Shown piece by piece: positions 1 to 57,926 of a stretch of DNA of 64,000 nt (position 1 is the first letter of the stretch; each line of letters opens with the position of its first letter). The stretch comes from a virus. The stretch covers positions 25,201 through 89,200 of the IMG/VR virus record IMGVR_UViG_3300030106_006724; one strand, written 5' to 3'. The translations under genes were made by a program, and so were the position numbers. A model generated the notes under the pieces. The model made no database searches and was not told the origin of the DNA. It worked only from the letters and a program-made list of their open reading frames with translations.

Positions 1-3
1 ATT

Positions 4-34
4 ATTTGGAAAATTAAATAAAATTACTTATATT
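4..34 (+). promoter_or_regulatory. Early/middle promoter (ATTTG-N20-TATATT)
   Basis: Matches the window-wide AGTTG-N20-TAT(A/C)TT motif; 6 nt upstream of ATG 41. Confidence 0.65.
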
Positions 35-40
35 ATAGAT

Positions 41-1060
41 ATGAAAGACGATAAAGCAAAAGGTTACGAATGGATAGGAGATGCAGACGAAACTGTAGAA
101 GCTCCAGCTAATGAACATTCAGTGAAATACTACGAACCTGATAGAGATTATGATTCTAAATATAATCCTACTAAAGATGATATTAAAACGTTTCCTGATC
201 TTCAAAATGGTCCTTCTTCTTTGATTCAAGGGTCTCCTGTCGCTATACAGCAGGTAGGTATTCATAATTTTAGATTACCTTTAAAGTATAGCAAGAGAGG
301 AGGTGGTGATATAGAATTAGAAACTAAAGTTACTGGTACGGTTTCTTTAGCGGCTCATAAAAAAGGTATTAATATGTCTCGTATCATGAGATCATTTTAT
401 GAATATAAAGATGATTATGTATATGACAAGTTAGATGAAATATTATTAAAGTATAAAGAAAATTTAGAGACCTTTGATGCTAAAATAGGATTACATTTTT
501 CTTACCCTATATTACAACCTTCATTAAGATCAGATAATGCAGGTTATCAATATTATAACTGTACTTTAGAAGGTAATATAGATGATAAAGGTAATTTTAG
601 AAAGTTTTTACATTTCGATTTCGTTTATTCATCTGCTTGTCCTTGTTCTTATGAATTAGCAGAGCATGCTAGAAAATATAGAAATAAAGCAACAGTATCT
701 CATTCTCAAAGATCTGTAGCAAGAATATCTATTGAATTTGACGATATAGTATGGATTGAAGATTTACAAGAGATGTGTGCTAATGCTCTACAGACTGAAA
801 CTCAAGTAGTTGTTAAAAGAGAAGATGAGATGGCATTTGCTGAATTAAATGGTTCTTATCTTAAGTTTGTAGAAGATGCTGCTAGATTACTATATGAGCA
901 GTTAATAGAGGATAAAAGAGTAAAAGATTTTAGAGTTATTTGTTCTCATCAAGAGTCATTACATTCTCATGATGCTGTTTCAGTAATTACAGCTCCTGAT
1001 AGTGAATTTTGTCAAGATGTTCCTCATGAGTTATGGTCAAGTTTAATTCATATATCATAA
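41..1060 (+). CDS. folE2: GTP cyclohydrolase I type 2 (FolE2)
   Basis: IQQVGI, KGINMSR, SACPCS, SHSQRS, ESLHSHDA motifs. Confidence 0.92.
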   Translation: MKDDKAKGYEWIGDADETVEAPANEHSVKYYEPDRDYDSKYNPTKDDIKTFPDLQNGPSSLIQGSPVAIQQVGIHNFRLPLKYSKRGGGDIELETKVTGTVSLAAHKKGINMSRIMRSFYEYKDDYVYDKLDEILLKYKENLETFDAKIGLHFSYPILQPSLRSDNAGYQYYNCTLEGNIDDKGNFRKFLHFDFVYSSACPCSYELAEHARKYRNKATVSHSQRSVARISIEFDDIVWIEDLQEMCANALQTETQVVVKREDEMAFAELNGSYLKFVEDAARLLYEQLIEDKRVKDFRVICSHQESLHSHDAVSVITAPDSEFCQDVPHELWSSLIHIS

Positions 1061-10598: not shown

Positions 10599-10910
10599 AT
10601 GCCAAAGTTATTAAACCCCGCAAATGATAGAGTACTTATCAAGCCTATAGATGAAGGTGAACAGACTTACGGGTCTATAGTTATTCCTGATATGGGTAAA
10701 GAAAAACCTGAAATGGGAGAAGTACTAGCCGTAGGACCTGGTAGATTATCAGAATATGGCAAAATGATACCGATAAGATCTTGTAAAGTAGGAGATATAG
10801 TTTTAGTTCCTAAAATAGGTTCTCTAAGAATAGATTTCGATGGAGAAGAATATTATATTACAAGAGATAGTGAAATATTAGCAGTAGTAAAAGAATCAAA
10901 TAATGAGTAA
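10599..10910 (+). CDS. groES: Co-chaperonin GroES
   Basis: PANDRVLI, GSIVIPD, KEKP, GEVLAVGPG, EILAV. Confidence 0.95.
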   Translation: MPKLLNPANDRVLIKPIDEGEQTYGSIVIPDMGKEKPEMGEVLAVGPGRLSEYGKMIPIRSCKVGDIVLVPKIGSLRIDFDGEEYYITRDSEILAVVKESNNE

Positions 10911-12546
10911 AAAAATTACATTTTCAAAAGACGCTAGGAATAAATTACTAAGCGGAGTTAATCAATTAGCAAATGCTGTAACAGCAACGTTAGGCCCTTC
11001 CGGAAGAAACGTTATTATAGAAAAAGATATGGGTAATCCAGTATCTACTAAAGATGGAGTTACGGTAGCTAAATCGATAGAGTTAAAAGATAAAGTAGAA
11101 AATTTAGGAGCACAAATAGTAAAACAAGCAGCTATTAAAACTGCTGACTATGCTGGTGATGGTACTACTACGTCTACTTTATTAGCTCAAGAAATTTTAA
11201 AAGAAGGTATAACTAGAATGGAAGCTGGTAGTAATGCAGTAGATATCAAAAAAGGTATAGATAACGCTACTGAAAAAGTTACTGATTTCTTATCTAGCAT
11301 ATCTAAAGATATTACAGATGAAGTACAATTAGAACAAATTGCTACTATATCTGCAAATAATGATAAAGAAGTTGGAAAGTTAATATCAACAGCCATGGAC
11401 AAGGTAGGGAGAGATGGAGTAGTTACGATTGAAGAGTCGAAGACAGGAGAGACGTATCTGGAAACAGTAGAAGGAATGCAATTCGACAGAGGTTATAAAT
11501 CTCCATATTTTGTTACGGACAATAATTCTATGACATCAGTACTGAAGGATCCTTTTATTCTTATTGTCGATAAGAGGTTAAATCAGGTCAAAGAGTTACT
11601 TCCTATCTTGGAGGCTGTTTCTCAACAGAATAAATCGTTATTAATTATAGCAGAAGATATAGACGGAGAGGCTTTATCTACTATGGTAGTTAATAAAATG
11701 AGAGGAATATTAGCCTGTGCTGCTGTTAAAGCTCCTGATTTTGGAGATAGAAGAAAGGCTATCATGGAAGATATAGCTGAATTAACCGGAGGTCAAGTAG
11801 TATCATCCGAAAAAGGTATGAGATTAGAAAAGTTTGATACTGGATGGTTAGGTAAGGCTAATAAAGCTACTATATCTAAAGAGTCTACTACTATTATAGA
11901 TGCTCAAGGATCTGAAGAATCTATTAATCAAAGAATAGCTTATCTAAAAGATCTTATTGAAGAATCAAATTCTCCTTTCGAAAAAGAAAATTTACAAAAT
12001 AGATTAGCTAAATTTATAGGAGGAGTTGCTGTAGTTAATGTAGGCGGTCATACTGAGATAGAAATGAAGGAAAAGAAAGATAGAGTTGAAGATGCTTTAC
12101 ATGCTACTAAAGCTGCATTAGAAGAAGGAGTTTTACCTGGAGGAGGAGTAGCATTATTAAATGCTGCAAATAATTTAGTTCAAAGCTTAGATGGAGTAGA
12201 TAATCGTGATGAAAGAACTGGTTACGATATAGTTATTAATGCTATAGAACAACCTTTCTTTAAAATACTAACTAATGCAGGATTATCAGATACTTATATT
12301 ACTAATATTGAAACTAATATTAAACAAACAGGAGACGTATGGGAAGGATTTAATCCTAGAGTAGATAAATCTGTTAATATGTTTAACGAAGGAATTATCG
12401 ATCCTACTAAAGTAACGAGATTAGCATTAGAAAATGCTTCCTCTGTTGCCGGTACTTTACTTATAACTGAAGCAGTAGTATCAAAAGGAAAAGAAAAAGA
12501 AAATAAACCAGTCGGAGGCGTAGATCCAAATATGCTTTTAGGCTAA
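10903..12546 (+). CDS. groEL: Chaperonin GroEL
   Basis: TLGPSGRNV, TKDGVTVAK, AGDGTTT, EGMQFDRGY, KAPDFGDRRK, GIIDPTKV. Confidence 0.97.
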   Translation: MSKKITFSKDARNKLLSGVNQLANAVTATLGPSGRNVIIEKDMGNPVSTKDGVTVAKSIELKDKVENLGAQIVKQAAIKTADYAGDGTTTSTLLAQEILKEGITRMEAGSNAVDIKKGIDNATEKVTDFLSSISKDITDEVQLEQIATISANNDKEVGKLISTAMDKVGRDGVVTIEESKTGETYLETVEGMQFDRGYKSPYFVTDNNSMTSVLKDPFILIVDKRLNQVKELLPILEAVSQQNKSLLIIAEDIDGEALSTMVVNKMRGILACAAVKAPDFGDRRKAIMEDIAELTGGQVVSSEKGMRLEKFDTGWLGKANKATISKESTTIIDAQGSEESINQRIAYLKDLIEESNSPFEKENLQNRLAKFIGGVAVVNVGGHTEIEMKEKKDRVEDALHATKAALEEGVLPGGGVALLNAANNLVQSLDGVDNRDERTGYDIVINAIEQPFFKILTNAGLSDTYITNIETNIKQTGDVWEGFNPRVDKSVNMFNEGIIDPTKVTRLALENASSVAGTLLITEAVVSKGKEKENKPVGGVDPNMLLG

Positions 12547-17560: not shown

Positions 17561-18799
17561 ATGAAAAAAACATTATTAATTGCTCTTGCTTTATTGATAG
17601 CAGTACCATCATTAGCTCAAGAGGAAAAGAAAAAGAAAAACTTCTTCAAAGAGCTATATTCTGACTTTTTAAAATATGGAACATTATATGCAGCTGGAGA
17701 TATTAGAAATGCATATGAAAACTCAAGAAAAGACTTTTTTGTAGAAAGACCAGCTGACGGTGACTTATATGCAATACCAAGAGTAATAGAGGTAACTGAA
17801 TATTTCGACTTCGATTATAGATACGGAGTAGGTATTCGTAAATTAGGAAGATTCGGTTATGAAAGAAAACCAGGTAACTTTTGGACTGGTAACCAATATA
17901 GAGAGAGTCAATTAGCATTATCAGCTCCAACATCTGCAGTAGATGGTTTTGAATATTTATTTCATTTTGAAAAAGAAAGATTAAGAGGAGAAGAATTTGA
18001 AAACTTTAGATATTTTTTAAGACATACAGGTAAATACCATATAGCTAAAATAGAATCTAGAGAGCAAGGTGCATATGACTTTTCTTATAAGTCAGCTGAA
18101 TTAAGAGCTAGATTACCTATCGGTAAAAAATTCAGTATATCAGCAGGAGCAATATATAGAACACACGAAAGAGCTTATGGATATAATCCTATCGAAATTT
18201 GGTTAAATGAAACCGAAACTTGGACTAATCCTACTACAGGAGAAGAAATTGAATACCCAGCTAACCCTTGGTACAGCTTAGGATTCCAATATGGATATAG
18301 CGACCACTATACTACTTATACAGATGTTAATACTGGAGAGGTACTTAACGATTGGATTTGGAAAGATGAACAAGGAAACATAGTAGCATATTCAGATTTA
18401 GATTTTAGGAATACAGTATTTAGAGACCTAATTAACAGATATAATAATGAAATCTGGGATACTATAGACCCCTTCGGTGTTGTATCTCCAATCATAGGAG
18501 CAGATTTTTATCATTATAAATCTAATTTCTGGCTTCACGCTTATGCTAACTATTTACCTCCATTCCACAAATATGTCTCAGGAGATGAAGACTTTAGTTA
18601 CTTAAATAGAAATAACTGGGGTAAAGGCGGATTAATACAGGATGCTGAAGGAGAACAATGGGAAGATTATCAAGTAGGACTTAATTTTGGTTGGAAAATA
18701 GGAAAAAATTTAGGAGTATTTATAGAAGGAGAGTATAATAAAATGTGGGATACTAAATTCTATAACTCAACATTTGGTATAAATTATACATTTAGATAA
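17561..18799 (+). CDS. Putative outer-membrane beta-barrel protein
   Basis: Sec signal peptide (SLA-Q), alternating aromatic strands, C-terminal STFGINYTFR beta-signal-like end. Confidence 0.7.
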   Translation: MKKTLLIALALLIAVPSLAQEEKKKKNFFKELYSDFLKYGTLYAAGDIRNAYENSRKDFFVERPADGDLYAIPRVIEVTEYFDFDYRYGVGIRKLGRFGYERKPGNFWTGNQYRESQLALSAPTSAVDGFEYLFHFEKERLRGEEFENFRYFLRHTGKYHIAKIESREQGAYDFSYKSAELRARLPIGKKFSISAGAIYRTHERAYGYNPIEIWLNETETWTNPTTGEEIEYPANPWYSLGFQYGYSDHYTTYTDVNTGEVLNDWIWKDEQGNIVAYSDLDFRNTVFRDLINRYNNEIWDTIDPFGVVSPIIGADFYHYKSNFWLHAYANYLPPFHKYVSGDEDFSYLNRNNWGKGGLIQDAEGEQWEDYQVGLNFGWKIGKNLGVFIEGEYNKMWDTKFYNSTFGINYTFR

Positions 18800-18801
18800 A
18801 A

Positions 18802-19086
18802 ATGGCAAAACAAATAGGTGAAGATACTAAGGTTACTTTAGATCTAAAAACAATAGGTATGTTAGCAGTAGGTATAGCTACCTTAGTTGGTATGTGGTTT
18901 GCCCTGCAAGGAGATATACAAGAAGCAAAAGAACTACCAGCACCAGTGATAGACAGGGTTGAATACGATTTGAAAGATGAATTGATTCGACAAACAATAA
19001 TGGATACTCAAGAAGACGTAGAAGATATAAAGGAACAGTTGGATAAGATTGATGAACGTCTTTATGAGTTACAACAAAAAAGATAA
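18802..19086 (+). CDS. Single-TM coiled-coil protein
   Basis: TM at residues ~17-35, then heptads. Confidence 0.7.
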   Translation: MAKQIGEDTKVTLDLKTIGMLAVGIATLVGMWFALQGDIQEAKELPAPVIDRVEYDLKDELIRQTIMDTQEDVEDIKEQLDKIDERLYELQQKR

Positions 19087-19088
19087 GT

Positions 19089-19490
19089 ATGAAAAAAGTT
19101 ATTTTCATTTTACTACTCTTTCTTCCTTTTATTAATAATGCACAAGAATTTATCGATGATTCTAACTTTGATAATAAAATCAACGAACAATCTGCTTTTG
19201 GAGATGATGAGACTAACATAGTAGTTGTTGAGTTTTGGGCTAAATTTAATGAAGCTAATGCTTTTGCTGATTGGGATAAAGTAGAAGGTGTAAAGTACTA
19301 TAGAGTAGATATAGGAGCAGCACCAGAAGCTAAAAAAGAATATAGAGTAAGAATGGCTCCTACCATAATAATATTCAAAAACGGTATTAACCAAGAATCA
19401 TTTAAAGCAGGTTTAGACTTAGAATGTCCTGTAACTTTAGATGAGTTGATAGAATCTATTGAAGAAGTCAAAACAGCAGATCAATTTTAA
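19089..19490 (+). CDS. Secreted thioredoxin-fold protein lacking CxxC
   Basis: Signal peptide; VVVEFWAKFN, YRVDI, YRVRMAPTIIIFKNG. Confidence 0.75.
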   Translation: MKKVIFILLLFLPFINNAQEFIDDSNFDNKINEQSAFGDDETNIVVVEFWAKFNEANAFADWDKVEGVKYYRVDIGAAPEAKKEYRVRMAPTIIIFKNGINQESFKAGLDLECPVTLDELIESIEEVKTADQF

Positions 19491-56451: not shown

Positions 56452-56652
56452 ATGTTAATAATAAAAGTAGGTAAAAAAGAAAATATAAATCAAGCTGTAA
56501 AGCGATTAAAAAGAAAGGTCCGTAATACTGGTCTTATTAAACAGATAAGAGAGAATAAGTATTTTGAGAAACCTTCTGCTGCTAGAAGAAAGAAAAAACA
56601 AAAAGCTGTCTTTCAGAAGAATTGGGAACTTAAAAACGGAATAGATGTATAG
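56452..56652 (+). CDS. rpsU: Ribosomal protein bS21
   Basis: MLIIKV..ENINQAVKRLKRKV..TG...IRE..YFEKPS..RR. Confidence 0.92.
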   Translation: MLIIKVGKKENINQAVKRLKRKVRNTGLIKQIRENKYFEKPSAARRKKKQKAVFQKNWELKNGIDV

Positions 56653-57137: not shown

Positions 57138-57539
57138 ATGAAAAATAAATTTGAATTAATAGATTACTTTATGATATTTGCTATAGCATTCTTTATACTT
57201 ATAGGTACTATGAGTACTATGGCTCAATCGTATACTGTTACTAAATGTGAAATGCATGATCATTATGTAATTAGTTTTATAGATGAGTTTAATGATAGAT
57301 GGTACGTAGATGGAGAAGAGGTTATTAGTTATGGTAAATTAGATCTAACTAAAAAAGAATATGTCCAGCTCATTAAAGATATTAAAAAAACATTTAAACA
57401 ATCAGAGAAAGAATTAGATAGAGCTAACTATGCTGTTATTAAATACGGTTGGGTTAGAGATAGTGTTTGGGTGTATTGGGATAATAAGGCATTTAGCGTA
57501 ACTAAAGAAGATATAGAATACTTAAATAGTAAACTATAA
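57138..57539 (+). CDS. Secreted hypothetical protein
   Basis: Signal peptide ending TMA-Q. Confidence 0.65.
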   Translation: MKNKFELIDYFMIFAIAFFILIGTMSTMAQSYTVTKCEMHDHYVISFIDEFNDRWYVDGEEVISYGKLDLTKKEYVQLIKDIKKTFKQSEKELDRANYAVIKYGWVRDSVWVYWDNKAFSVTKEDIEYLNSKL

Positions 57540-57543
57540 AATA

Positions 57544-57690
57544 TACCCAGTAGAGCAGTAGGTAGCTCGCTTTGGCTTAACCTGGCGCGGAGAAGTAACT
57601 TGTACGTAAAAGTGAAACTCGTAATACAATCGATCGTGAAAAGCAAAAGGGTCAAAGAGGTCGCAGGTTCGAGTCCTGCCTGGGCAGCAA
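57544..57690 (+). ncRNA. tRNA-like RNA with a 78-nt structured insert replacing the anticodon loop
   Basis: Acceptor TACCCAG/CTGGGCA, D-arm GAGC-AGTAGGTA-GCTC, stem CTTTG/CAAAG, variable loop AGGTC, T-arm GCAGG-TTCGAGT-CCTGC. Confidence 0.8.
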
Positions 57691-57705
57691 AATAAACTTT
57701 AAACT

Positions 57706-57736
57706 AGTTGGAGAATAGAAATATTTTTCTTATATT
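57706..57736 (+). promoter_or_regulatory. Early/middle promoter AGTTG-N20-TATATT
   Basis: Exact motif. Confidence 0.75.
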
Positions 57737-57767
57737 AAAGGAATAAACGGTTATAAAAATTAAGGTT

Positions 57768-57926
57768 ATGAATAGTGAATTAATAGATTTTCTTTTAGAT
57801 AAAAAAAGTAAAGGTTTACCTATGAATGTAGGACAGGCTATGTCTGAGTTAAATATGTGGAGAGAAGGTAAAGTTGAATCTGTAGCTAATACTTTCAGAA
57901 TCGAATGGGAAAAAAATAATAAATAA
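57768..57926 (+). CDS. Hypothetical protein, 52 aa (not in ORF track)
   Basis: AAGGTTATG start after promoter. Confidence 0.6.
   Translation: MNSELIDFLLDKKSKGLPMNVGQAMSELNMWREGKVESVANTFRIEWEKNNK

What the first reader, a model, noticed from the sequence alone, without database searches (positions are those of the whole stretch)
57544..57690. Initiator-like tRNA scaffold whose anticodon loop is replaced by a 78-nt folded arm
Seen: acceptor stem (6 of 7 pairs, A2-C71 mismatch), D-arm, 5-bp anticodon stem, variable loop and T-arm are all canonical, but the loop (57575-57652) is 78 nt instead of 7. The insert can pair internally (CGCGG/TCGTG, TTGTA/TACAA, AGT-GAA-ACT, GCTT/AAGC) into a long arm. 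The 3' end is GCAA, not CCA. Established: a GAGC/GCTC D-stem (A11-U24) is typical of bacterial initiator tRNA; 71 extra nt is far too short for a group I intron; tmRNA lacks a full D-stem. Inference: either a protein-spliced tRNA intron or a tRNA-mimic ncRNA, such as a decoy for anticodon nucleases or stringent-response sensors, or a tRNA-protected carrier for a functional RNA domain. It lies in the same gene run as phage bS21.
Basis: partly seen in the sequence, partly recalled or inferred. Interest (0 to 1): 0.85.

Follow-up and report, generated by a model that had tools for sequence, protein, structure and literature searches.

The report
Self-pairing tRNA-shaped phage RNA
A marine phage of Flavobacteriaceae carries a conserved small-RNA gene that keeps the upper body of a tRNA but has a long folded arm instead of a codon-reading loop; that arm ends in a self-complementary loop, so the RNA probably pairs with a second copy of itself, and what it does is unknown.

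Summary
Window 57544-57690 (+) has a canonical acceptor stem, D arm, variable loop and T arm, but 78 nt sit where the 7-nt anticodon loop belongs. It is neither decayed nor a chance fold. I found 68 distinct relatives in viral and marine metagenome contigs. The full-length form was not found in 141 Flavobacteriaceae genomes. Covariation supports every helix (96.6% of cells paired, 0 of 500 shuffles as good).

The anticodon stem continues as a 7-bp helix, then a bulge (UUAA here), 3 bp, a 3x3 internal loop, a 2-bp G-C clamp and a hairpin.

New here:
- Every module variant keeps a perfect 6-nt palindrome at one loop position: CGAUCG, CGUACG, CAUAUG, AUGCAU or GUGCAC. Adjacent bases cannot pair within one chain, so this points to a symmetric kissing dimer.
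- 0 of 68 members pair both 1-72 and 2-71.
- The D arm equals the Flavobacteriaceae initiator tRNA's.
- RNA-library contigs hold the insert joined to the 3' tRNA half.

Splicing is disfavoured: an intron-aware tRNA finder implies 10 different anticodons.

The link to bS21 is lineage-specific (4 of 29 records). Function is unknown; my guess is a non-decoding mimic.

This scan found the same family before on other DNA (e1-6077462, e1-6077470).

The parts
57544..57687 (+). Whole tRNA-shaped RNA, position 1 to the discriminator (144 nt); 57688-57690 is CAA, so no CCA is encoded
   Evidence: CM R1 scores it 164.8 bits, against 60-68 bits for host tRNAs.
57544..57550 (+). Acceptor stem, 5' strand; pairs with 57680-57686. 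Pair 2-71 is an AxC mismatch.
   Evidence: Pairs 3-70 to 6-67 covary. 0 of 62 plus 0 of 6 members have both 1-72 and 2-71 paired.
57553..57568 (+). D arm (GAGC / AGTAGGTA / GCTC; A11-U24), identical to the D arm of the Flavobacteriaceae tRNA-Met(CAT)
   Evidence: The 17-nt word is exact in 57 of 61 genomes of that family against 2 of 81 of the class sample. Some relatives have GTTC/GAAC or CCTC/GAGG instead.
57570..57576 (+). Extended anticodon stem, 5' strand (7 bp with 57651-57657)
   Evidence: 100% of cells paired and 4 of 7 pairs changed on both sides. RNAalifold predicts the same stem independently in class B.
57577..57580 (+). Bulge UUAA on the 5' strand
   Evidence: Among 62 members: UUAA 50, UAAA 4, AUUAA 4, AUAA 3, UUAUAA 1. 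UAA is present in all.
57581..57583 (+). Second helix, 5' strand (CCT with AGG at 57648-57650)
   Evidence: The middle pair is C-G 27 / U-A 25. The outer pair is C-G 36, A-U 6, G-C 6, U-A 4. No cell is broken.
57584..57588 (+). GGC of a 3x3 internal loop (opposite AAA 57645-57647), then a 2-bp G-C clamp (57587-57588 with 57643-57644)
   Evidence: Clamp pairs are 100% paired. L260 has a C-G to G-C swap and L245 a G-U.
57590..57620 (+). Inner hairpin (GAG/CUC base, CUU/AAG top, loop holding UACGUA at 57603-57608). It is absent from the 115-117-nt short relatives.
   Evidence: pairs 49-81 and 61-72 of A5 changed on both sides. 14 of 52 class A members lack the hairpin.
57631..57636 (+). Self-complementary hexamer CGAUCG in the large 3' loop of the module: the proposed kissing (dimerisation) site
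   Evidence: 156 of 156 cells are 'paired' when the hexamer is read against itself. L320 has CGUACG and L260 has CAUAUG. Class B has AUGCAU x8 and GUGCAC x2. This is the only CGATCG in the 89.2-kb record; 5.1 are expected.
57658..57679 (+). Variable loop AGGUC and T arm (GCAGG-UUCGAGU-CCUGC)
   Evidence: 3 of 5 T-stem pairs changed on both sides.

Best explanation
This is a working, non-decoding, unspliced small RNA gene. It descends from a phage copy of the Flavobacteriaceae initiator tRNA. The tRNA 'elbow' (acceptor/T and D arms) is kept, so the RNA can be cut out of tRNA arrays or longer transcripts by the host's tRNA-processing enzymes and stay stable. This processing step is inferred. The anticodon loop is replaced by a rigid, bent extension arm: a 7-bp stem, an A-rich bulge, 3 bp, an internal loop, a G-C clamp and an optional hairpin. 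The tip of the arm displays a 6-nt self-complementary word. Two copies most likely join tail to tail through this word as a loop-loop (kissing) dimer. That is inferred from palindrome covariation; it is not shown physically. The end of the acceptor stem is always frayed, as in initiator tRNA, which should keep the RNA away from the elongation machinery (inferred). The dimer would then act in trans as a mimic or sponge for some factor that reads the upper body of tRNA. The identity of that factor is a guess.
For: Real and conserved:
- There are 62 distinct members from D-arm-anchored scans.
- Six more came from module-anchored scans.
- Helices covary.
- Each of the 12 viral records searched has one full-length copy, at 85-174 bits.

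Not found in host genomes:
- In 141 Flavobacteriaceae genomes the best CM hits listed are all 76-nt tRNAs of at most 67.9 bits.
- 0 of 120 genome contigs pattern hits had a tRNA body.

Origin:
- The D arm, variable loop and T arm match the host tRNA-Met(CAT).
- In the complete 60-kb phage G146 the element directly follows a phage tRNA(CAT) that has an A1xA72 mismatch and A11-U24.

Handled like a tRNA:
- It lies 2-11 nt after tRNA-Gln in 6 of 25 loci.
- In L260 it lies 4 nt before another tRNA.
- 35 of 65 distinct upstream flanks have a promoter-like GTAYATT that ends 6-10 nt before position 1.

Not spliced:
- RNA-library contigs carry the insert joined to the 3' tRNA half: X17 57552-57729, X18 57582-57696, X16 57615-57765.

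Self-pairing:
- Five different hexamers occupy the homologous loop site and all are perfect palindromes.
- There are four pair changes in three lineages and no one-sided change, so 186 of 186 cells are 'paired'.
- Kretsch et al. 2025 (PMC12286853, passages read) use the same logic for the symmetric kissing loops of OLE and GOLLD.

Frayed acceptor end:
- 0 of 68 members pair both 1-72 and 2-71.
Against: - Dimerisation rests on covariation in only three lineages (L320, L260, L016/L286).
- 59% of shuffled modules contain some 6-nt palindrome, so the mere presence of one is weak evidence.
- An intramolecular helix that hides half the hexamer is possible in 91.3% of class A cells.
- It is what the single-sequence MFE fold shows.
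- The RNA evidence is contigs only. Contigs cannot show ends, levels, strand or the absence of a spliced form, and DNA may be present in RNA libraries.
- The initiator-type A11-U24 is not family-wide: 5 of 6 module-anchored members have U-A or C-G at 11-24.
- My D-arm counts for the 62 are partly circular, because the scan patterns fixed the D arm.
- No conserved protein neighbour or partner was found.
Confidence: 0.55

Rival explanations
1. It is an intron-bearing tRNA, most simply tRNA-Leu(UAA). An unknown host or phage endonuclease and ligase remove the module, and the spliced product decodes.
For: ARAGORN with introns allowed finds a 76-nt tRNA plus a 69-nt 'intron' in the window and a tRNA in 61 of 62 members, with anticodon UAA in 31. 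UAA is present in all 62 bulges. Devoto et al. 2019 (PMC6784885, passages read) report conserved 'enigmatic introns' in tRNAs of Lak phages, which infect another Bacteroidota genus.
Against: - The implied anticodon is not stable: taa 31, tag 14, aag 4, gaa 4, aaa 2, gag 2, and ttg, tat, cag and ggg once each.
- ARAGORN's model needs a shifted stem with two bases between the D and anticodon stems.
- ARAGORN's model also cuts through helices that covary.
- In 8 of 62 members the base 5' of UAA is not U.
- The layout is not a bulge-helix-bulge, and 37-71 nt is far too short for a group I core. Rfam gives no intron or ribozyme hit even at E<=10.
- The locus L246 also has an ordinary tRNA-Leu(taa).
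- RNA contigs show the unspliced junction.
- An intron that is only discarded would not need a covarying palindrome.
Confidence: 0.08
2. It is a monomeric carrier. The tRNA body only stabilises and processes the module, which acts on its own, for example as a released small RNA or as a protein- or ligand-binding domain. The palindrome serves something other than self-pairing.
For: The module is the most conserved part, whereas the D stem and acceptor sequence vary. The inner hairpin is optional and two unrelated module classes sit at the same place. The design resembles the engineered tRNA scaffold (recalled; seen in no call).
Against: All five hexamer variants stay palindromic. A protein site or a target-pairing site has no need for that. 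The module was not found outside a tRNA body: the other matches of the two module scans are chance matches without the rest of the module (4 of 12 new loci; 81 of 82 hits).
Confidence: 0.15
3. It is a cis-acting processing signal ('punctuation'). The tRNA shape only tells RNase P and RNase Z where to cut a phage polycistronic message or how to start the downstream mRNA.
For: No terminator follows the element. Downstream genes start 12-80 nt later. RNA contigs run on into downstream sequence.
Against: Upstream and downstream genes differ between lineages. A cutting signal needs only an acceptor/T minihelix, not a conserved 37-76-nt module with a covarying palindrome and an invariant bulge motif.
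Confidence: 0.1
4. It is a decayed tRNA gene disrupted by a random insertion.
For: Standard tRNA finders and Rfam do not call it.
Against: There are 68 distinct members, with compensatory changes inside the insert and no broken helices.
Confidence: 0.01

Closest known systems
Phage T5 RNA2 and phage T4 species 1/2 RNAs (rnaC, rnaD)
   Same: These are small stable phage RNAs encoded in tRNA clusters, with a tRNA-like acceptor/T arm, no usable anticodon loop and unknown function. They are annotated as such in NC_005859 and NC_000866. The T5 RNA2 fold shows acceptor, D arm, an enlarged central arm and a T arm.
   Different: They are not homologous. CM R1 gives T5 RNA2 25.1 bits, below ordinary T4/T5 tRNAs (26-51 bits) and far below family members (85-174 bits). 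It gives no hit on T4 rnaC. In T4 rnaC the enlarged hairpin sits at the D-arm side. No palindrome covariation is known for them.
'Enigmatic introns' in tRNAs of Lak megaphages (Devoto et al. 2019, PMC6784885)
   Same: These are phage tRNA genes, from phages of a Bacteroidota host, interrupted in the anticodon region by short, highly conserved sequences with no known splicing route (passages read).
   Different: There they were read as introns from tRNAscan's eukaryote mode, each with an assigned anticodon. Here the implied anticodon is inconsistent and the insert has its own covarying structure. Their sequences are in supplements that I could not open, so homology is untested.
Bacterial initiator tRNA-fMet (Flavobacteriaceae type)
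   Same: The 17-nt D arm is identical, the variable loop and T arm nearly so, 11-24 is A-U, and the acceptor end is weak.
   Different: It has no CAU, no run of G-C pairs in the anticodon stem and no 7-nt loop. The acceptor sequence is different. In the window 1-72 is paired and 2-71 is not.
Symmetric kissing-loop homo-oligomers OLE, GOLLD and ROOL (Kretsch et al. 2025, PMC12286853)
   Same: Loop palindromes switch between different palindromes, which was taken there as evidence for intermolecular pairing. GOLLD and ROOL are phage RNAs near tRNA islands (passages read).
   Different: Those RNAs are roughly 500-800+ nt and not tRNA-shaped. No Rfam family matches the window. Oligomerisation is shown for them by cryo-EM; here it is only inferred.
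tmRNA and YrlA (Y RNA-like)
   Same: They are non-decoding RNAs with a tRNA-like domain.
   Different: ARAGORN finds no tmRNA. Pair 3-70 is C-G, not G-U. YrlA scores 14.5 bits against a gathering score of 69. In both of those the tRNA-like part lacks a full D stem or is internal to the RNA (recalled).

Membership tests
Canonical tRNA (Rfam RF00005) | Reaches the family's gathering score / is found by a tRNA finder | tested here: not met
   0 tRNAs by default ARAGORN. No Rfam hit at gathering score. Only the T arm matches, at 14.5 bits against 29.
Canonical tRNA (Rfam RF00005) | 7-nt anticodon loop with U33 and a purine at 37 | tested here: not met
   78 nt lie between the stem halves. The flanks pair as a 7-bp helix with a 4-nt bulge.
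Bacterial initiator tRNA | CAU anticodon | tested here: not met
   There is no CAU at the loop position, and none can be made by removing one contiguous piece.
Bacterial initiator tRNA | Three consecutive G-C pairs at the base of the anticodon stem | tested here: not met
   The stem is CUUUG/CAAAG. The host initiator has GGG/CCC.
Bacterial initiator tRNA | Mismatch at 1-72 | tested here: inconclusive
   The window has U1-A72 paired and A2xC71 unpaired. In the family 33 of 62 members have 1-72 unpaired, and 0 of 62 plus 0 of 6 have both top pairs formed.
Bacterial initiator tRNA | Purine 11 - pyrimidine 24 (A11-U24) | tested here: met
   Met in the window and in the 62 D-arm-anchored members, but only in 1 of 6 module-anchored members.
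Intron-bearing tRNA (archaeal/eukaryal protein-spliced type) | Bulge-helix-bulge: two 3-nt bulges on opposite strands, 4 bp apart, at the exon-intron borders | tested here: not met
   The layout is one 4-6-nt bulge on the 5' strand, then 3 bp, then a 3x3 internal loop. The order of strands is opposite to a 37/38 intron (the known layout is recalled).
Intron-bearing tRNA (any type) | Removal gives the same, usable anticodon in all relatives | tested here: not met
   10 different anticodons among 61 calls.
Intron-bearing tRNA (any type) | A spliced joint in RNA | tested here: inconclusive
   No joint over the insert is listed in 4 RNA runs, and unspliced junctions are present. These are contigs, which cannot show absence.
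Group I intron in a tRNA anticodon loop | Conserved catalytic core (about 200 nt or more) | tested here: not met
   The insert is 37-78 nt. Rfam gives no hit even at E<=10.
tmRNA | G3-U70, tag reading frame, pseudoknots | tested here: not met
   ARAGORN finds no tmRNA. Pair 3-70 is C-G or A-U and never G-U.
T5 RNA2 / T4 rnaC family | Sequence-and-structure similarity to the annotated RNAs | tested here: not met
   R1 gives T5 RNA2 25.1 bits and no hit on T4 rnaC, against 85-174 bits for family members.
Symmetric kissing-loop RNA homodimer (works-like class, not a sequence family) | A loop palindrome that changes to other palindromes | tested here: met
   CGAUCG, CGUACG and CAUAUG in class A; AUGCAU and GUGCAC in class B. 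186 of 186 cells are 'paired'.
Symmetric kissing-loop RNA homodimer (works-like class, not a sequence family) | A physical dimer | not testable with these tools
   Needs a native gel, SEC-MALS or cryo-EM.

The most novel reading that the evidence does not exclude
The RNA is a two-fold symmetric 'double initiator-tRNA look-alike'. Two frayed-end tRNA bodies are held tail to tail by a kissing loop. The dimer captures two copies of a host factor, or two ribosomal sites, that read the upper body of initiator tRNA. Candidates are formyltransferase, IF2, the 50S P/E site, or a tRNA-directed defence toxin. Through this, the phage would reprogram or protect translation initiation in Flavobacteriaceae, which start translation without Shine-Dalgarno pairing (recalled). 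In some lineages it would act alongside phage bS21.
Probability: 0.08. Interest if true: 0.9.

Novelty: new variant of a known kind. Interest (0 to 1): 0.66.

Why it matters
Phage tRNA-shaped stable RNAs without an anticodon (T4 species 1, T5 RNA2) are annotated as being of unknown function. By recall they were found decades ago. This family offers a tractable handle on them:
- It is widespread in marine Flavobacteriaceae phages.
- It has a clear parent tRNA.
- It has a modular arm in at least three forms.
- It has a specific, testable feature, a covarying palindrome. That predicts an RNA-RNA dimer that point and compensatory mutants can make or break.

It also bears on how 'tRNA introns' reported in phage genomes should be read: at least here the insert behaves like a functional domain and not like an intron. 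If the dimer mimics initiator tRNA, it would be a new way for a virus to touch translation initiation.

Tried and rejected
- **Phage database.** blastn of the element and of 1.2 kb around it against the 50,697 records found no full-length relative. Only T-arm matches to phage tRNA-Asn, Thr and Arg appeared.
- **Genome-contig scan.** The 14-base pattern gave 120 hits, all without a tRNA body, so they are chance matches.
- **Conserved neighbours.** Window ORFs from 53.4-61.9 kb recur only in close relatives. bS21 is within reach in 3 of 29 loci and anywhere in 4 of 29 records.
- **Shared proteins.** I compared the complete phage G146 with the other element-bearing DNA. The shared proteins were:
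  - a GroEL-like chaperonin;
  - a 412-aa plus 94-aa pair with no family in Pfam or PHROGs, for which the Atlas gave only viral hypothetical proteins;
  - a 68-aa membrane-like protein present in 5 of 91 loci.

  None is a credible RNA partner.
- **L244 neighbours** were not informative.
- **Second host tRNA as source of the GTTC/GAAC D arm.** 0 of 5 Flavobacteriaceae genomes match.
- **Spliced form.** No joint over 57575-57652 was listed in RNA runs X15-X18, and the stretches upstream of the element had no cover. Contigs show neither absence nor level, so I use neither as evidence. An adapter-like loose end at 57688 in one X15 contig is too thin to call a 3' end.
- **Alternative helix CGCG/CGUG.** It is possible but without covariation.
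- **Bulge as a second self-pairing site.** UUAA and UUAUAA are palindromes, but UAAA and AUAA (7 of 62) are not, so I dropped this idea.
- **Inner-loop palindromes.** ACGU in class A and UAAUUA in class B are invariant or nearly so. L359 has UAAUUUA. They give no covariation evidence.
- **Resemblances seen by eye.** A likeness of part of the module to the 16S 3' region and the SD-like AAAGAGGU repeats were not kept in relatives and I did not pursue them (no call).
- **Literature.** Searches (listings seen) showed no description of this family. Supplements are closed, so the Lak phage intron sequences (Devoto 2019, Supplementary Table 6) and the interaction tables of Kretsch 2025 could not be compared.
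- **Not used.** Complex prediction and structure prediction.
Full report
**What is there.** The window is part of an 89.2-kb IMG/VR virus record estimated to be 54% complete. The element at 57544-57690 (+) lies between ORFs 57138-57539 and 57768-57926 on the same strand. Its first base is 5 nt after the upstream stop codon, and no terminator-like site follows it. The sequence has:
- a 7-bp acceptor stem with A2xC71;
- U8, a GAGC/GCTC D stem with an AGTAGGTA loop, an AGGTC variable loop and a GCAGG-TTCGAGT-CCTGC T arm;
- a discriminator G followed by CAA.

Between the halves of the 5-bp anticodon stem lie 78 nt. Default ARAGORN and Rfam do not call it. The single-sequence fold is not unusually stable (z = +0.67), so one sequence alone proves little.

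**It is a conserved family.** Pattern scans anchored on the D arm and T loop found relatives in IMG/VR and in marine metagenome contigs. Together they give 62 distinct sequences in 92 copies (one further hit, L304, is an ordinary tRNA). They fall into three forms:
- class A long (143-147 nt, including the window);
- class A short, which lacks the inner hairpin (115-117 nt; 14 of the 52 class A);
- class B, with an unrelated module at the same place (140 nt; 10 sequences).

Scans anchored on the module instead of the tRNA body added six more distinct full-length members. Their other hits were chance matches without a tRNA body, so the module was not seen on its own. Each of 12 viral records searched holds exactly one full-length copy, at 85-174 bits with my covariance model. 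In 141 Flavobacteriaceae genomes the best hits listed are all 76-nt tRNAs of at most 67.9 bits. The full-length form was therefore not found in the host genomes searched.

**Structure.** Counting pairs on 52 aligned class A sequences gives 96.6% standard pairs. Twenty-one pairs are changed on both sides, 0 of 500 shuffles are as good, and slid controls give 31-51%. An earlier subset gave the same picture. Class B gives 96.6% and 14 such pairs. RNAalifold on class B independently predicts the 7-bp stem, the 4-nt bulge and the continuing helix.

The anticodon stem is really 7 bp long (57570-57576 with 57651-57657). It is followed by:
- a bulge on the 5' strand (57577-57580);
- 3 bp that covary freely (CCU/AGG, CUC/GAG, CCA/UGG, CCC/GGG, CCG/CGG);
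- a 3x3 internal loop (GGC/AAA);
- a 2-bp G-C clamp, which L260 swaps from C-G to G-C;
- a large loop that, in the long form, carries an extra hairpin.

Its CGCGG/TCGTG helix, which is also what the MFE fold shows, is possible in 91.3% of cells. It has no compensatory change and is broken in L260. It may be an alternative monomer conformation.

**The palindrome.** At one homologous position in the 3' loop of the module every member has a perfect self-complementary hexamer:
- class A: CGAUCG (50 of 52), CGUACG (L320) and CAUAUG (L260);
- class B: AUGCAU (8 of 10) and GUGCAC (2 of 10), inside an 8-nt hairpin loop flanked by purines.

Read against itself, the hexamer is 'paired' in 186 of 186 cells. 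There are four pair changes in three lineages and no one-sided change. The central two bases are neighbours and cannot pair within one chain. The simplest reading is pairing between two copies, that is, a symmetric kissing dimer. Kretsch et al. 2025 use exactly this argument for OLE and GOLLD, whose dimers and cages they solved (PMC12286853, passages read).

Three caveats apply:
- 59% of shuffled modules contain some 6-nt palindrome, so only the positional covariation counts.
- Three lineages are few.
- No physical evidence exists.

CGATCG occurs only once in the whole 89.2-kb record.

**Origin and host.** The 17-nt D-arm word is exact in 57 of 61 sampled genomes of the family of Mesonia (Flavobacteriaceae). 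In a class-wide sample it is exact in only 2 of 81. Where I looked, that word lies in a tRNA-Met(CAT). That tRNA's variable loop and T arm also match the element, and its acceptor has C1xU72. In the complete 60-kb phage G146 the element directly follows a phage tRNA(CAT) with A1xA72 and A11-U24. This suggests a duplicated phage initiator tRNA gene as the ancestor.

The initiator-type D stem is not required, however. Five of the six module-anchored members have GTTC/GAAC or CCTC/GAGG, and no host tRNA with that variant arm was found in 5 genomes. It looks like ordinary covariation. My count of A11-U24 in the other 62 is partly circular, because the patterns fixed the D arm.

What is family-wide is a frayed acceptor end. 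0 of 62 and 0 of 6 members have both 1-72 and 2-71 paired: 29 pair only 1-72, 28 pair only 2-71, and 5 pair neither. The discriminator is A in 42 of 62, and no member encodes CCA.

**How it is made.** In 6 of 25 loci scanned the element lies 2-11 nt after a tRNA-Gln(UUG). In L260 another tRNA starts 4 nt after it. In 35 of 65 distinct upstream flanks a promoter-like GTAYATT ends 6-10 nt before position 1, and 29 of these also have GTGG further upstream. The RNA is thus either cut out like a tRNA or started almost exactly at its first base.

In public marine metatranscriptome assemblies, contigs hold the insert joined to the 3' tRNA half: X17 57552-57729, X18 57582-57696 and X16 57615-57765. 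A class B-type 5' junction is also present in X16. These are contigs. They show that the unspliced form exists in RNA libraries, and nothing about ends, level or absence of other forms.

**Is it an intron?** With introns allowed, ARAGORN calls the window tRNA-Leu(UAG) with a 69-nt intron at 35/36. To do so it shifts the stem and leaves two bases between the D and anticodon stems. Across the family it of 62, but with ten different anticodons (taa 31, tag 14, and eight others). The 'exon' bases it uses belong to covarying helices. UAA is present in every bulge, but 8 of 62 lack U before it. One locus also has a normal tRNA-Leu(taa). There is no bulge-helix-bulge layout, no room for a group I core and no ribozyme hit. 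I put the intron reading at about 8%.

**Context.** The bS21 gene is real (56452-56652; Pfam E 5.5e-15), but it accompanies the element in only 4 of 29 viral records. Flanking genes differ between lineages. No shared protein looks like an RNA partner.

**What it is like.** The kind is known: T5 RNA2 is annotated 'tRNA-like stable RNA with unknown functions' and T4 rnaC/rnaD 'small, stable RNA'. T5 RNA2 folds as a tRNA with an enlarged central arm. Neither is a member of this family: T5 RNA2 scores 25.1 bits and rnaC gives no hit. Lak megaphage tRNAs with 'enigmatic introns' (Devoto et al. 2019, passages read) may be a parallel case, but their sequences are in supplements that I could not open. 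I found no description of this family in four literature searches (listings seen). This scan met the same family before on another genome (e1-6077462, e1-6077470) and met other anticodon-less phage tRNA look-alikes. I treated those notes as leads and tested the host assignment, the T4/T5 comparison and the Lak lead myself.

**Verdict.** It is a real, conserved, phage-borne tRNA-shaped RNA that most likely does not decode and is not spliced (about 85% for these points together). It probably self-pairs through a loop palindrome (about 60%). Its role is unknown. My working guess, a dimeric mimic or sponge for something that reads the upper body of initiator tRNA, is weakly held (about 25%).

Noticed in passing
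window 56452-56652 (+): A phage-encoded ribosomal protein bS21 (66 aa; Pfam PF01165 E 5.5e-15; PHROG 21469). Among 29 element-bearing viral records only 4 carry one.
   Followed up: partly
window 10903-12546 (+): A phage GroEL-type chaperonin (547 aa; Pfam Cpn60_TCP1 E 2.3e-71; PHROG 5725). It is shared with other element-bearing phage records, including the complete 60-kb G146.
   Followed up: partly
window 17561-19086 (+): A 412-aa plus 94-aa gene pair with no Pfam or PHROG family. It is conserved (33-59% identity) in G146, G166, L014, L016 and others. The Atlas gives only viral hypothetical proteins, so it may be structural.
   Followed up: partly
window 19089-19490 (+): A thioredoxin-like protein (Pfam PF00085, E 2.1e-07).
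   Followed up: no
L245, L272, L003 and about 30 other loci, 6-60 nt upstream of the element: A conserved promoter-like pair, GTGG(A/T) then about 17-20 nt then TTCGTATATT. The same CGTATATAC-like word recurs further upstream. It may be a phage-specific promoter of these Flavobacteriaceae phages.
   Followed up: partly
L002 about 650-727 (G146:C1:4940-5016): A phage-encoded tRNA(CAT) with initiator traits (A1xA72, A11-U24) lies immediately upstream of the class B element in a complete 60-kb phage. The pair looks like a tandem duplicate.
   Followed up: partly
L251 3604-3680 and L252 (same sequence): A phage tRNA(CAT) with the same D arm and a GGGG/CCCC anticodon stem, but with extra bases in front of the T loop, followed by a second tRNA.
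   Followed up: no
L304 (metagenome contig Ga0126343_10034893), 252-369 (-): An ordinary initiator-type tRNA whose 3' part (T arm and acceptor end) is repeated about 60 nt downstream. This is the pattern left by an element integrated into a tRNA gene.
   Followed up: no
window 57832-57906: One RNA-library contig of X15 skips 73 nt inside the 52-aa ORF 57768-57926 (side 22, likeness below 95). It is probably a strain variant or another organism and not a splice.
   Followed up: no
L284 74-218: The 5' acceptor strand (AAAAGGG) does not match the 3' strand (CTGGGAA). This may be a recombinant or an assembly chimera between two lineages of the element.
   Followed up: no
G000 whole record: CGATCG occurs once in 89.2 kb (5.1 expected from base composition), and that one copy is the element's loop palindrome.
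   Followed up: partly
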